In this document: positions 3,001 through 12,000 of the stretch, piece by piece
How positions within the stretch are numbered: position 1 is the stretch's first letter
How the letters are laid out: every line of letters begins with the position of its first letter
Origin: Ylistrum balloti
Lineage: Eukaryota
Length of the DNA: 64,000 nt
Assembly (NCBI RefSeq): GCF_031769215.1
Contig: NW_026782320.1
Location: 1 to 64,000 of the forward strand
Reading direction: 5' to 3'
Made by a program: the position numbers

Positions 3001-6000
3001 AAGACACATTAGCCCATTAGGTACCACCACAAAAGTCACATTGTGTGCCTCACCAGTTTTCGCATTAGTCACCTCCAGATCCGCTTCACCAAGGGGTTTC
3101 AAATCTGACTTATTCCACATCTTCAATGTTATAGATGTAGGTCGAACTTGAGTTTTTCTCACAAACTTCTGATTGATAGTGTTCACATCTGCAGCACTGT
3201 CGAGTTGGAATCGAACCTCCTGCTCGTTCACTATCATGCACGCTGACACATTCTGATGTGGCTTGGATTTCACAGCTGATAGCCAATGATAATTGTCGTC
3301 ATCACTATCCTCACACTGTGTATCATTCCCTTCAACCAAATGTATCTTTTTACATTTTATTTTGAAGTGGTGTCTCCCCTTACAGTGGTCGCAGACTTTC
3401 CCATAGGCTGGGCATTTATACTTATTACGTTCATGTTTGCCCCCACAAAAATCACACTCACCATGTCTGTCCTCCGGTTTTTTGGGTCTGCTGGGTTTCA
3501 CAGAGCGTCCAGCACCAGGTTTCTTATTTTCGTCATTGGAATGTTGACTCCGATTACTGTTACTGGTTTTACGATGAGCCTTTGTGACTTTGTTTACTTT
3601 AGTAGCGACTGACACACCGCCATCCCTCAATTCTTTCACATGATTTGCTGACTGTTCAAAAGCACGACACAGTTTAATAGTTCCTTCTAGAGTGTTACTG
3701 TCGTCTTTCAATAACTGTAGCTGAAGCTTACCTTGACATGAGAAAATAATCTTGTCTCTGATCAGACGATCCTTCAAGGCGCCAAAATTACATCGATCGG
3801 CCCTGTGTCTCAACTCCGTAAGGAAAATGTCGAATGGTTCCTGCCACAGTACACACCAGAATCTGTGTTATTCAATAACCTCATTCGCTCGGGGATTACA
3901 GTATTTCTCAAGTTTTTTGAGTACTTTATCGGGATCCTTATCATCATTCTCGTTATCCCATGTGAATTGATCAAACAGTTCAACCACGTGTGGACCCGCA
4001 CAATGCAAAATAATAGCAACTTGGGTTACATTGTCCTTCGCCGCGGTACCGCTCGCCGACATGTAAATTTCCACTTGTCGTTTCCATTTCCGGAAATTTT
4101 CGGCAATATTACCTTCCGTAATGTTTAGTTTCTCCGGCAAACGAAATGCTGCTTCTGCCATGTTAAGTTTACCGCTGCCACCATGTGAATAACTATATCT
4201 GGTCTAACAGGACCGACAGAATACAGATAACACTAACACGTGTAGCCGGCATGATCTACTGTATTCGACTGAAGCACATGGTACCACATAGGTAGACACA
4301 AAATTGGGATTGGTATCCTAGCGAGGCTGTCACAATTATGCGGAACGAATGCATATATATATATATAACTTGGAATTAACATGGAACGAAATGTCATCAA
4401 CAGTTCTGACCTGGACCTTGTGAATACTGTAATTTCTGAAAATAAGATATCAGGAAGTATTAATCAGCATTTCATTGAGATGGCCACGTATAGTCTGTTT
4501 CATGTACATGTACATATTTACGCATAACTCTACATCCCCCTTTTTGGGTATTCTACGAGAAATATGGAATTATCTCACAACATTAACTAAATGTAATGAA
4601 CTCAATAAAGCTATTCAAATTATTAATGTCTCGAAGTTATCTTTTGACCAGTCTTTGCAATGAACACATTTCAAGAGCTACCTACTCAAAAAATTAAAAT
4701 CTAGGAATTAACACAGTCAATCATCTAAAGTTCACAAGTCCATCCGGTTTGGAGCAACCGAGACTCTGCCTGAGCGAGTAGTGATCACGTTATCACTTCT
4801 AGAACCTACACCTATCTCTGAACTATTACTGACATGAACAGATGCATTTGACACAGTCTTTGACTTTGGAGACCCAGCTGGCTTTGGAGCCTTTACTGGG
4901 GTATTATACATAGTCTCTGCATTTGGTTCCTTCACATCACTGGGAAGGTCTCCGCATCCGGCACTGGTGTGCGGGTTGTCCGCCCTCATAGCTGGAGCTT
5001 GGACCAGCTGTCTCCTGTTCCGACGAATCTGACCTGACGGTGTACTGACGAAGTATGAGCGATCATTCATTGACTTAGTGATCGTTCCACTGAACCCTCC
5101 ACCGGGTCCCTTCACCCACACTGTTTCTCCAGGGTGTAGTTCCGGATGTTGAACTGTGCGATGTGATCGATCAAAGTGGTGTCTTTGGGATGTTCGATCT
5201 ATCCGTTCCTTGTCTCGAACATACTCAAGATCTGGCCACTTAGGAGAGAGATTAGCTGGACTCTCCGGAAGAGTTGTACGGAGCTTCCGGCCCATTAGTA
5301 GTTCGGAAGGACTGTAACCGTTCCGTAACGGCGTAGCACGATATGCTAGCAATGCTAGATACGGATCTTGAGAGCCACTAAGTAGACGTTTCATTGTCTG
5401 AACTCCTCTCTCAGCTTTCCCATTCCCTTGAGGGTAATGAGGGCTACTGGTTGAGTGATTGAATCCAGTCTTTCGCAAAGTCCTGAAATGTTGAACTAGC
5501 GTATTGTGGACCGTTGTCCGATATGATAGTCTCTGGTATTCCATGTCGCGCGAACATCGATTTGAGATGCGTTACTATCGCCTCTGATGTTGTGGAGCTC
5601 AGCTTAGCGATCTCTATGTACCTAGAGAAATAGTCAATCACCAGTAGATAGTTGACTCCTTTCCAGTAGAAAAGATCTGATCCCAATTTTTGCCAGGGAC
5701 GATCTGGGAAATCTGTAGGCATGAGAGGTTCTGGTCTCTCTATCCTGTGCTTAAGACATGATGGACAAGTTTTAACAATATCCTCGATCTCTCGGCTGAG
5801 ACCAGGCCACGGCACTTTACAATGCCCTGGTGTCCCTCGTGTAGTTTCTGTAATACTTCTGCTCTCATAGATGAAGGAATGACAAGTCTACTTCCTCTCA
5901 TAAGCAAACCATGACACACTGAAAGTTCCTCCCTCAACTCTCAGTATGGTCTAGTGGAGACGGTGATCGTAGGATGTTCATATCCGGGCCATCCATCCTG

Positions 6001-9000: not shown

Positions 9001-12000
9001 ACGATTTGAACTTTGATGTGGTATGATTGAATACTGTAATTTCTGAAAATAAGATATCAGCAAGTATTAATCAGCATTTCGTTGAGATGGCCACGTATAG
9101 TCTGTTTCATGTACATGTACATATTTACGCATAACTCTACAATAATGATTTATCGTCTCTATGACTCTGCCCGTGGCCGGGCATTGTCCAATCTATTGGA
9201 ACGGACATTTATTATAGAATTCAGATTAAAAATACGTAACAGTTGTATGGAGATTTAACCCACCACCAGCATAGCAAGGAACAACTGCCAAGCAATCTTC
9301 TGTGGAAACACGTTTATTTACAAACCCACATGGTTGTTGTAATGATAACTCATAAGATGGCGGACTGTGAACAAGTGTTTTATTCCCATAACGAGGCTCA
9401 CACAAGAACCTATGACGTAACACACACACAATACAAGTTATACTAATAACTGCAATAATTAGATGAACAACATGCGTGTGATATCATTACATCTCCCCCC
9501 CCCCCCCCTTTTTGAGATAATTCATAATTATTAATACACTATTCATTATTATCAATATGCTATTATGTTATATAGTGTTACTATTAATGAATAAACAATT
9601 AAAATTTAGAAAAATTTTTTTTTTTTTCAAATTTTACCACAGTTCATTAACATGGATCTTTCTCTGTTTCCTTGCTGATCTTGGTAAATTTCTCGTCAGA
9701 GACTGCTGATACACTAAGAACTTCGTAGTCATCCTCCAGTTTTGTTGTGTCGTCAACTTCAGTCAAGTGTGCTCTACTCAAGGCATCTGCGACATGGAGT
9801 TCTTTTCCTGGTACATACTTTATGTCAAGGTCGTATGGTTGAATCTTCAATAGCATTTTCTGCAGTCTGGTTGGTGCTAAGTAGAGTGGCTTCCTCACTA
9901 TGATTTCAAGTGGTTTATGATCAGTCTGTACAGAAACTTTCTTTCCGTAAATGTATTGGTGGAATTTGCTTGTGCCAAACACTATTGCCAACATCTCCTT
10001 CTCTATTTGAGCATAATGTTTTTGTGCGGTTGTGAGAGATTTTGACGCATATGCCACTGGCTGGTTGTTTTGTAATAGCACTGCTCCAAGTCCTGTTGAG
10101 GACGCGTTGACTGACAATGTTACTGGTTGTTTAACATCGTAAAACTTGAGCACAGGTTGTACTGACAAAAGACAAGTCTGGCTTGTGGTACGTCAGGTTT
10201 ATTGGAGAAATAGTAAAAGCTGAAAGAAATTAAAGGTTGACATAAGTAATCTGTGTTGTGTTTTGATTCTTATTCAATTACAGATCTACAAGTGTACATA
10301 TTATAATTCTACACGATTTCTATACTATATAGAACAATGAAGTGCCTATGGCTTATCTAGAACATTTGACTACTTAAATTATCTAATTCTCACCTTGAGA
10401 TCATGAAACAAGTCACTTGGTAATTTTCATAAAAATGAGGGACATGTATCCTTAATATTTCTTACATGTGTACTGCACCAACACTAATGTCACATATTAG
10501 CAATTACATTAACATATTCTGTTAATGTACCAAGACCGGAACAAAATTAATAATATACCTGGCTAACTAAACTAGTAATCAGCAATTATGACCAAATCGA
10601 ATCGTAGAAATGAGCCCCTTATACATGCGAGGCAAAGTTACCGCTTCAAGCTACGACACAAAGTGTGTTAACATACCTAAATTACTGTATTGCTTTACCA
10701 CTTAATTACAGTTATTATGGACAATAAATTCAATTATTTATGTAAACTTACACAGTATGGGCCACAATATAGCCGATAGATGGACAATATTTGGTCAGAA
10801 AACATCTGCTTTCGTTTTTCCCATGTGAACTAGAGCGGAAATCCGAAAATAGCAAAGGGCGATAACTCAATAAGGAGCGTTCCTATAGGTATCATGCACC
10901 TAAGTAGTGAAGACTGATAATAGTTCCAGCACACTCCTCGCCTGATATGTATATATCACTATCATTGCTATAAATTATATAACATTGCTCACCTGCTTTT
11001 TAACCAAAATAAACACAAAGGAATTTGAACAGCAAAATAACAAGATTTGCCTTGACGTTTTATAAGGGAAAGTTGGCCGTGTTCTCATTCACTACAGTCA
11101 AGGCACATAATTACATTTATAGCTTGATGAATGACACACTGTCATCTCAATCTCTGGGAACAAGTTCCACAACTTCTGCCACAGGACGGATAAAGTTTGA
11201 GATCTTTCCATCGCGGACAACGCGAAGTTCAACTTTACGTACTAGTTCGTCAGTACTAGGGATCACGCGTGTAATGACTCCCAATGGCCAGTCATTCCAT
11301 ATTACCTGCGAATCCTTCATTATGATTACATCACCGACCTTGATATCCCGCTCTTTCTCCTGCCACTTCCTTCTAGGTTGCAAGGTAGCCAGGTACTCTT
11401 TCCGCCATCGTGACCAGAATCTTTCTGTGAGAACTTGGACCTGACGCCACTGCGAATGGTACATGTCTTTAAGGCTCAGATGTTGGAAGGTCTCAACCTG
11501 ACCTTCTGATTTTTGAGTAAGCAGTACAGAGGGTGATAAGACGAATGGCTGCTCTGGGTCAGATGAAACCGGCACTAAGGGGCGCGCATTAATGATGGCG
11601 GCTACCTCCGCGAGGAGGGTGGTGAGGACTTCATGGGTGAGGTCTTTCCCTCTCCTTTCCAGCAACATTGCATCCAGGATCCTGAGAGTTACCCCAATCA
11701 TGCGCTACCATACACCTCCGAAGTGGAATAAAAGTTGGGTCTATTTCAATATGATGTTTGTAGAATGATCCTTGTAATCCACTAAAAACATCTGAATATT
11801 CCTTCAGGATATCTGTGTTTTGTTTTGTTTCTGTGCTAACAGCATCAACTTTCTTTACAAGATTCAACTCTTGACATGACAAAAGTCCAATAACAGGGGT
11901 GACGTCTTGCTCAACGACATGACAATCTAGCACGTAGTATCTATTCTTGTACTCGCACTGAACCATTGCACGACCAACGGTTTGAATTCTCTCCCCTGTC

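What the first reader, a model, noticed from the sequence alone, without database searches (positions are those of the whole stretch)
4403..9141. Gypsy element cut, circularly permuted and inverted, with novel junctions present twice
Seen: the segment LTR-3'end/PBS/UTR/gag/protease is inverted relative to pol and permuted; protease STRILK joins the LTR 3' end at about 8795. It is opened at a 70-bp gag-start segment that occurs three times (4421, 7707, 9028). The junction gag-start/LTR-5'end occurs at 4491 and 9098. The junction pol-GPGQN/gag-start occurs at 4403-4421 and 7689-7707. The two pieces (pol-PPT-LTRa and LTRc-PBS-gag-pro) are the two arcs of a one-LTR circle. The 4421 copy differs from the others at 2 positions, which argues weakly against an assembly echo. 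Inference: an extrachromosomal LTR circle, or a template-switching product, was rearranged and integrated or re-copied, keeping an authentic TG end at 9141.
Basis: partly seen in the sequence, partly recalled or inferred. Interest (0 to 1): 0.65.

Follow-up and report, generated by a model that had tools for sequence, protein, structure and literature searches.

The report
Scrambled, dead Gypsy retrotransposon copy
One decayed copy of an ordinary Gypsy-type retrotransposon has its front part (leader, gag, half of the protease) flipped and rotated relative to the rest, most likely a one-off scar of faulty copying or repair and not a new kind of element.

Summary
Window 4403-9141 contains one complete coding set of a Ty3/Gypsy element, split at a single point inside the protease. 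A scallop polyprotein (P0003) maps residues 1-334 on the + strand and residues 332-1325 on the - strand.

- **Permuted + strand block.** It reads leader end, gag, half protease, then the last 36 nt of an LTR, the primer-binding site and the leader.
- **Repeats.** A 71-nt leader/gag-start segment occurs three times. Each of two novel junctions occurs twice, and a third occurs once.
- **PBS and LTR terminus.** The 11-nt primer-binding site is identical to that of an intact relative in the window. The 43-nt LTR start lies next to a polypurine tract at one copy and next to unrelated DNA at the other.
- **Not autointegration, not family architecture.** No junction involves an LTR terminus, so this is not a classical autointegration product. 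Three other Gypsy copies in the window, and the long relatives that span both halves, are colinear.
- **Mechanism.** It is unresolved. I favour template switching or recombination among replication intermediates (circle-derived), then duplication, a repeat-mediated deletion and a later Gypsy-1 insertion. In-place replicative repair is nearly as good, and an assembly artefact is not excluded.

The copy is broken, and interest is modest.

The parts
1..4402 (-). Gypsy-1: a separate, colinear Ty3/Gypsy copy, cut by the window start. LTR copies are visible at 1-88 and 4311-4402, with a polypurine tract just inside 88. Its outer LTR end at 4402 abuts segment A.
   Evidence: repeat 1-88 / 4311-4402, identical apart from a TA-run length. 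(gag, PR, RT, RNase H and IN all on the - strand). Coding region in at least 5 ORF pieces.
4403..4420 (+). Segment A, left copy: reverse complement of the first 18 nt of the pol-side block. It is all that is visible of a second unit interrupted by Gypsy-1.
   Evidence: 18 of 18 identical to 7689-7706.
4421..4491 (+). Segment B, left copy (leader end plus the first 4 gag codons).
4492..4534 (-). LTR start (43 nt, begins TG on the - strand), left copy, directly downstream of the polypurine tract.
4535..4547 (-). Polypurine tract of the rearranged element.
   Evidence: Read. The same purine run followed by TGT is seen at four other LTR elements in the window.
4732..7706 (-). Pol-side block: second half of the protease, RT, RNase H and integrase, treated as one broken gene. 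It has 3 frame changes and 1 in-frame stop relative to P0003.
   Evidence: RVT_1, RT_RNaseH, Integrase_H2C2, rve. (P0003 aa 332-1325, mean identity 69%)..
7707..7804 (+). Segment B, middle copy (98 nt: 71 nt plus a perfect 27-nt tandem duplication), continuous with gag.
7793..8794 (+). gag plus the first half of the protease, open throughout (0 stops, 0 frame changes).
   Evidence: P0003 aa 1-334, identity 57.5%. (Asp_protease_2 profile positions 8-39 of 90 only)..
8795..8830 (+). Last 36 nt of an LTR (ends ...CA), joined on its left to the half protease.
   Evidence: 22 of 28 columns identical to LTR end plus PBS of the intact element. (unique in the window).
8831..8841 (+). Primer-binding site (11 nt shared exactly with the intact element 27667-32327).
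8842..9027 (+). Leader (5' untranslated region), continuous with the right copy of B.
   Evidence: PBS-to-ATG distance is 254 nt here versus about 312 nt in the intact element.
9028..9098 (+). Segment B, right copy.
9099..9141 (-). LTR start (43 nt), right copy. Its TG terminus abuts unrelated sequence.
9142..10168 (-). Right neighbour: a 196-nt spacer, then the 3' LTR (9338-9491), polypurine tract and RNase H ORF of a third Gypsy fragment.
   Evidence: TG...CA ends and inverted termini read by eye. (RT_RNaseH, 9647-10168)..

Best explanation
This is a dead, rearranged copy of an ordinary colinear Ty3/Gypsy element of the K02A2.6-like group, not a new type of element.

The block 'LTR end - PBS - leader - gag - first half of protease' behaves as if it had been closed into a 1.32-kb circle, with the half protease joined to the LTR interior. 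It was then copied for one turn plus 71 nt. That would produce both the circular permutation and the 71-nt terminal repeat. This block sits in reverse orientation against the complementary block 'second half of protease - RT - RNase H - integrase - polypurine tract - first 43 nt of LTR'.

I think the scrambling most likely happened among replication intermediates, by template switching during reverse transcription and/or recombination of extrachromosomal DNA. One specific inferred step is that a nascent minus strand copying the LTR end landed on a look-alike site in the protease. The composite was then present in more than one unit. One unit lost the 1.32-kb block between two direct copies of the 71-nt segment. 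Gypsy-1 later inserted into that unit.

Shown: the anatomy, the complementarity, and the junctions. Inferred: the circle, the direction of copying, and the order of events.
For: 1. One genome-equivalent, split at one point. P0003 maps aa 1-334 on + and aa 332-1325 on -. The boundary residues of the two pieces coincide in 38 of the 38 relatives (of 119 that aligned to both pieces) in which both could be mapped.
2. The + block is a rotation of the natural order with a 71-nt terminal repeat. LTR end, PBS and leader are continuous, as in an intact element.
3. At the half-protease/LTR junction, 9 of the 12 nt that follow resemble the start of the other protease half. The binomial probability is 3.9e-4. 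Across the region, 7 of 9456 12-mers reach this level, including the two self copies and this one. The junction keeps the LTR version of those 12 nt, which is what copying in the minus-strand direction followed by re-annealing would leave. This last point is inference.
4. The outer end at 9141 is exactly the LTR terminus that follows the polypurine tract at 4534.
5. Rearranged, truncated and LTR-less circles of LTR elements are abundant in nature. Passages of PMC12951756 give 1-LTR rearranged circles as 52.5% and 0-LTR rearranged circles as 2.3% of nomad circles. Passages of PMC7197481 describe deletion and inversion circles. Passages of PMC10462705 describe truncated EVD circles and truncated new insertions.
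6. The junctions join non-homologous sequence. The repeated copies differ (2 of 114 positions, a 27-nt duplication, different neighbours), which an assembler echo would not produce.
Against: - No copy of this family with a whole LTR is available, so I cannot say whether the LTR breakpoints coincide with the ends of the genomic RNA. The model needs that at least for the 36-nt piece.
- Complete LTRs in the window are 119-168 nt, against 79 nt present here.
- The two junctions that flank the pol block show no homology (2-4 of 12 in register), so they are not explained by annealing.
- Mixed sense and antisense blocks cannot arise from RNA-templated switching alone. A DNA-level joining step is needed.
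- Passages of PMC10462705 say circles of LTR elements are generally regarded as dead ends for integration.
- The left end of the structure, where a second LTR terminus would be needed for integrase-mediated entry, lies outside the window.
- No other copy with these junctions was found. The searches that could run were weak: 0 hits among proteins of 204-651 aa and 0 in prokaryotic contigs.
- An ordinary insertion scrambled in place explains the authentic terminus at 9141 more simply.
Confidence: 0.4

Rival explanations
1. In-place rearrangement of an ordinary - strand insertion. A break or stalled fork inside the protease was repaired by replication with serial template switches (FoSTeS/MMBIR type) between the two strands of the nearby 1.4 kb. 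Unequal exchange between the two 43-nt LTR starts then made a second unit, followed by deletion between direct copies of the 71-nt segment and the Gypsy-1 insertion.
For: - The LTR terminus next to the flank at 9141 is then simply the original insertion boundary.
- All templates lie within about 1.4 kb of the split point.
- A single break explains why the same point in the protease is used by two junctions with no loss.
- Nothing is lost apart from part of one LTR.
- The locus is a dense nest of transposable elements.
Against: - Two of the three junctions show no microhomology in register.
- At the third junction the look-alike tract lies on the side expected for copying in the antisense direction.
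- Three further independent events are needed to reach the present state.
- Unequal exchange would rest on only 43 nt of homology.
Confidence: 0.3
2. Assembly artefact: chimeric reads or a wrong path through near-identical copies of the family produced junctions that do not exist in the chromosome.
For: - The locus is repeat-rich.
- No reads are available to me.
- No second locus with these junctions was found. Both searches had little power.
Against: - Misassemblies join at shared repeats, whereas these three junctions join unrelated sequence.
- Two junction types recur in different contexts, with 2 of 114 differences and a 27-nt duplication.
- Base-level quality looks good, since two relatives in the same window keep open frames of 1280 and 1328 codons.
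Confidence: 0.12
3. Classical integrase autointegration (a deletion or inversion circle), or nested insertion of one copy into another followed by recombination.
For: - The two blocks are exactly the two parts that self-integration into the protease would separate.
- Inversion and deletion circles are described for other elements (passages of PMC7197481, PMC9694575 and PMC12951756).
Against: - The defining junction, an LTR terminus joined to an internal site, is absent at all three junctions. The LTR is joined 43 nt from its start and 36 nt from its end.
- There is no clean 5-bp duplication of the kind seen at the intact element (TATAG). The overlap is one codon with 2 of 3 nt identical.
- There are 0 inverted repeats of at least 40 nt in 1-16000.
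Confidence: 0.05
4. A natural architecture of a distinct lineage, with gag encoded opposite to pol and the 114-nt B+C composite acting as its LTR.
For: The 114-nt composite flanks the pol block in direct orientation, 4607 nt apart. That is close to the 4542-nt LTR spacing of the two intact elements. A polypurine tract precedes one copy.
Against: - What follows the two composites differs: leader antisense at one, protease at the other. Neither shows a PBS.
- The only PBS match is on the other strand, next to the 36-nt LTR end.
- The protease is cut in two.
- Pol carries 4 disabling changes.
- The three other Gypsy copies with gag and pol in the window are colinear. So is P0003, and 119 of the 120 listed relatives align to both halves within one protein.
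Confidence: 0.03

Closest known systems
Ty3/Gypsy (Metaviridae) LTR retrotransposons annotated 'K02A2.6-like', e.g. the Pecten maximus protein P0003, and the two intact elements in this window (27667-32327 and 51009-55718)
   Same: Same domains in the same relative order: gag, aspartic protease, RT, RNase H, H2C2 and DDE integrase. Identity to P0003 is 57.5% for gag and 69% for pol. The LTR ends are short TG...CA, a polypurine tract is present, and the 11-nt PBS is the same as in one intact neighbour.
   Different: Here the coding set is split in the protease and lies on two strands. No whole LTR is present. A 71-nt leader/gag segment is triplicated.
Rearranged extrachromosomal circles of LTR elements: autointegration deletion or inversion circles, and '1-LTR rearranged' or '0-LTR rearranged' circles (passages of PMC7197481, PMC12951756, PMC9694575)
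   Same: Sub-genomic blocks that are complementary at one internal site, with relative inversion, circular permutation, and partial or missing LTR.
   Different: The junctions are not at LTR termini. The structure is in a chromosome assembly, in more than one unit, with a later insertion in it. Those papers describe free circles.
Complex rearrangements by replicative template switching (FoSTeS/MMBIR). The name is recalled, and only search listings were seen (PMC7507428, PMC3638133).
   Same: Several junctions lie within a small interval. Inverted and duplicated blocks are copied from nearby templates, and one junction shows imperfect homology.
   Different: The rearrangement is confined to one 4.7-kb mobile element and conserves its whole content. 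Two junctions lack microhomology.
Tandem arrays of LTR elements that share an LTR between units (recalled, no paper read)
   Same: A repeat (B+C, 114 nt) sits at both ends of the pol block and is followed by the start of a further unit.
   Different: The shared repeat is a composite of an LTR start and antisense gag/leader, not an LTR. The units are unequal.

Membership tests
Ty3/Gypsy LTR retrotransposon | gag, aspartic protease, RT, RNase H, then integrase (integrase after RT) | tested here: met
   Pfam domains. A full-length match to a colinear polyprotein is reached by adding the two pieces.
Ty3/Gypsy LTR retrotransposon | All coding regions colinear on one strand | tested here: not met
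   P0003 aa 1-334 on +, aa 332-1325 on -.
Ty3/Gypsy LTR retrotransposon | Two complete LTRs in direct orientation at the ends | tested here: not met
   Only a 43-nt start (two copies) and a 36-nt end (one copy) are in the window.
Ty3/Gypsy LTR retrotransposon | PBS directly after the LTR end and polypurine tract directly before the LTR start | tested here: met
   PBS at 8831-8841 after ...CA. Purine run at 4535-4547 before TG. The matching tRNA was not identified, because no tRNA gene is in the window.
Ty3/Gypsy LTR retrotransposon | Target-site duplication flanking the element | not testable with these tools
   The left end lies beyond the window start.
Autointegration product (deletion or inversion circle) | LTR terminus joined to an internal site of the same element | tested here: not met
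   The LTR is joined 43 nt from its start and 36 nt from its end. The third junction has no LTR.
Autointegration product (deletion or inversion circle) | Two parts complementary at one internal site, with a short target duplication | tested here: inconclusive
   Complementary within one codon. The overlap is imperfect (2 of 3 nt, 9 of 12 nt) and is not a clean 5-bp duplication.
One-LTR circle derivative | Internal region present once, plus exactly one LTR | tested here: inconclusive
   The internal region is present once. It is unknown whether 43 + 36 nt make a whole LTR. Neighbouring elements have 119-168 nt.
DIRS-like elements | Tyrosine recombinase in place of a DDE integrase, plus inverted or split terminal repeats | tested here: not met
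   rve and Integrase_H2C2 domains are present. There are 0 inverted repeats of at least 40 nt.
Replicative template-switch rearrangement (FoSTeS/MMBIR) | Microhomology at each junction, with templates nearby | tested here: inconclusive
   9 of 12 at one junction, 2-4 of 12 at the others. All templates lie within the element.

The most novel reading that the evidence does not exclude
The locus is a germ-line fossil of a rearranged extrachromosomal retrotransposon DNA that re-entered a chromosome. The sub-genomic circle would have been made when minus-strand strong-stop DNA mis-transferred to an R-like site inside the protease. The complementary pol fragment was then joined in reverse, the composite was copied for more than one turn, and it was captured with an authentic LTR terminus. 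That would be direct sequence evidence, in an invertebrate germ line, that 'dead-end' rearranged circles can integrate.
Probability: 0.25. Interest if true: 0.55.

Novelty: new variant of a known kind. Interest (0 to 1): 0.3.

Why it matters
If the structure is real, it records in one locus a chain of events that is usually seen only as transient free DNA. These are a sub-genomic circle, a strand inversion, copying for more than one unit, and deletion between direct repeats.

It could show whether rearranged retrotransposon circles ever return to the germ line, and by which route. It also warns annotators. Automatic pipelines would call this two fragments or two elements, and the 114-nt composite repeat mimics an LTR pair of the right size and spacing.

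The copy is defective, so there is no functional consequence for the element family.

Tried and rejected
- **Composite repeat as a working LTR pair.** Rejected. No PBS follows either copy, and what follows the two copies differs.
- **Autointegration and nested insertion.** Rejected, because no LTR terminus is at any junction.
- **DIRS-like element.** Rejected.
- **RNA structure in LTR end plus leader plus B that might explain the switch points.** None found. The minimum free energy is -70.8 against a shuffle mean of -75.5, z = +1.06, and 84 of 100 shuffles fold at least as well.
- **tRNA for the PBS.** ARAGORN found 0 genes in the window, so the primer tRNA is unnamed.
- **Pfam on the second protease half alone (7401-7706).** 0 families. 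The complementarity therefore rests on alignments to relatives and not on profile coordinates.
- **MAFFT of the 43-nt LTR start against the intact LTR.** Uninformative.
- **Protein search for ORFs that read across the half-protease/LTR junction.** There were 4 candidates and none scored. Only lengths of 204-651 aa were searched.
- **Exact-match scan for LTR end plus PBS in prokaryotic genome contigs.** 0 hits, as expected for a eukaryotic element.
- **Literature.** Three searches did not list a paper describing an integrated copy with this inverted-and-permuted layout. Only listings and the cited passages were seen.
- Searches failed on my frame errors and were re-sent with corrected coordinates.
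- **Not checked.** Other copies in the host genome and the sequence left of the window stayed unchecked.

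
Full report
**What is there**

The first 14 kb of the window is a nest of LTR retrotransposons. Self-comparison of 1-16000 against the whole window finds only short direct repeats and no inverted ones.

- **Segment B** is 71 nt and occurs three times in + orientation: 4421-4491, 7707-7804 and 9028-9098. The middle copy is 98 nt because of a perfect 27-nt tandem duplication.
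- **Segment C** is 43 nt and occurs at 4492-4534 and 9099-9141.
- **Segment A** is 18 nt and occurs at 4403-4420 and 7689-7706.
- The left B+C differs from the right B+C at 2 of 114 positions. The middle B equals the right B apart from the duplication, and the two A copies are identical.
Only the segment length (71, not 70) needs correcting.

**What the segments are**

- B ends with an ATG and three further codons. At 7793 these open a 334-codon gag/half-protease frame on the + strand.
- C read on the - strand begins TG. At its left copy it directly follows a purine run at 4535-4547. The same purine-run-then-TGT layout is seen at Gypsy-1, at both intact elements and at a third fragment. C is therefore the first 43 nt of the element's LTR, and its end at 9141, next to unrelated DNA, is an authentic LTR terminus.
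- The - strand from 7706 down to 4735 encodes the second half of the protease, RT, RNase H and integrase.
- After the half protease, the + strand continues with 36 nt ending ...CA, then TGGTGTCAGAA. This 11-mer occurs exactly once more in the window, immediately after the 5' LTR of the intact element 27667-32327. LTR end plus PBS matches at 22 of 28 columns.
- The tool's own chance figure for the 11-mer, at up to 1 mismatch, is not impressive: 1.73 expected, and 54 of 100 shuffles gave at least 2 matches. What counts is that both matches are exact and that both sit after an LTR end.
- So 8795-9098 is 'LTR end - PBS - leader - gag start' in natural order. The PBS-to-ATG distance is 254 nt, against about 312 nt in the intact neighbour.

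**Complementarity**

The best named full-length relative is a 1325-residue protein of Pecten maximus (P0003).

- It aligns with residues 1-334 on the + strand (7793-8800; 0 stops, 0 frame changes; 57.5% identity).
- It aligns with residues 332-1325 on the - strand (7706-4735; 3 frame changes, 1 in-frame stop; 69% identity).
- The window's own intact polyprotein gives the same picture: the + piece ends at its residue 308, and the - piece projects to start at about 307.
- Of the 120 listed relatives, 119 aligned to both pieces. In the 38 where both boundary residues could be mapped, they fall on the same residue in 38 of 38.

Every internal part of the element is therefore present exactly once. 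The protease is cut at one point, with an overlap of one codon.

**Layout on the + strand**

A (18 nt) - B - LTR start (reversed) - polypurine tract and pol (reversed) - B - gag - half protease - LTR end - PBS - leader - B - LTR start (reversed) - flank.

- The gag-side block is a rotation of its natural order with B at both ends. That is the signature of a circle read for one turn plus 71 nt.
- The stretch from the first B to 9141 is 4721 nt. The 114-nt B+C composites lie 4607 nt apart, which mimics the size and LTR spacing of intact relatives (4542).
- The composites are nevertheless not LTRs. No PBS follows them, and what follows them differs.

**It is not the family's normal form**

Gypsy-1 and the two intact elements in the window are colinear. 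So is P0003, and 119 of the 120 listed long relatives align to both halves within one protein.

**Junction details**

- In register, the 12 nt that follow the half protease match the first 12 nt of the other protease half at 9 positions (binomial 3.9e-4). In the region, 7 of 9456 12-mers reach this level, three of them being this site and the two self copies.
- The other two junctions show 2-4 of 12.
- None of the three junctions uses an LTR terminus.

**Mechanism**

Classical integrase autointegration would separate exactly these two blocks. It yields deletion or inversion circles (passages of PMC7197481, PMC9694575 and PMC12951756). It is excluded as the direct cause by the junction positions.

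I favour an origin among replication intermediates (confidence 0.4):

1. A nascent minus strand copying the LTR end re-annealed at the look-alike site in the protease. This gives the half-protease/LTR junction and a 1.32-kb sub-genomic circle.
2. DNA-level joining with the complementary pol fragment followed, in reverse orientation.
3. The composite was copied for more than one unit.
4. The 1.32-kb block was lost between direct B copies in one unit.
5. Gypsy-1 inserted into that unit.

Only the anatomy is shown. The steps are inferred.

An almost equally good rival (0.3) is in-place replicative repair of an ordinary insertion after a break in the protease. It explains the authentic terminus at 9141 trivially.

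An assembly artefact (0.12) is unlikely for three reasons. The junctions join unrelated sequence. The repeated junctions sit in different contexts with small differences. Two neighbouring elements keep open frames of 1280 and 1328 codons. Without reads it cannot be excluded.

**What stayed open**

- The full LTR of this family is unknown. Only 79 nt are present, against 119-168 nt in neighbours.
- The sequence left of the window was not available.
- The primer tRNA is unidentified.
- Three literature searches listed no description of an integrated copy with this layout. I read only passages of four papers.

**Verdict**

This is a real-looking, well-defined, one-off rearrangement of a common element. 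It is defective: the protease is split once by the rearrangement, and pol has 3 frame changes and 1 stop. It is a curiosity for transposon specialists and an annotation trap, not a new system.

Noticed in passing
window 1-64000: Strong strand bias. 14 of the 15 ORFs of at least 150 aa overlapping 14000-64000 are on the - strand. So is every transposon-domain ORF I scanned (Gypsy, DUF5641 of BEL/Pao type, GIY-YIG plus RT, hAT, MULE/SWIM). The only exception is the flipped gag/half-protease block at 7793-8794. This looks like a one-strand transposon nest of the kind that serves as a small-RNA source locus.
   Followed up: partly
27667-32327 and 51009-55718: Two apparently intact Gypsy elements on the - strand, with 1280- and 1328-codon open frames and LTR pairs 99% identical (119 and 168 nt). 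The first has a TATAG target duplication. Both have the same LTR start-to-start spacing of 4542 nt, although each is only about 38% identical in RT to the rearranged element.
   Followed up: partly
9338-10168: A third Gypsy fragment on the - strand: a 154-nt 3' LTR with inverted termini, a long G-run polypurine tract and an RNase H ORF. No matching 5' LTR was found in the window.
   Followed up: partly
1-4402: The two visible LTR stretches of Gypsy-1 are identical apart from the length of a TA run, so the insertion is young. Yet its coding region is in at least 5 ORF pieces, which suggests it was copied from an already defective source.
   Followed up: no
57999-58500 and 25361-25841: A tandem array of 70-nt units (at least 6 copies, 74-93% identical to the reference unit) and a cluster of 60-170-nt imperfect repeats. 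Their nature was not examined.
   Followed up: no
26365-26940: A - strand ORF with a weak GDSL-lipase match, below the Pfam cut-off (29.5 vs 32.9 bits). It is possibly the only non-transposon coding remnant seen.
   Followed up: no
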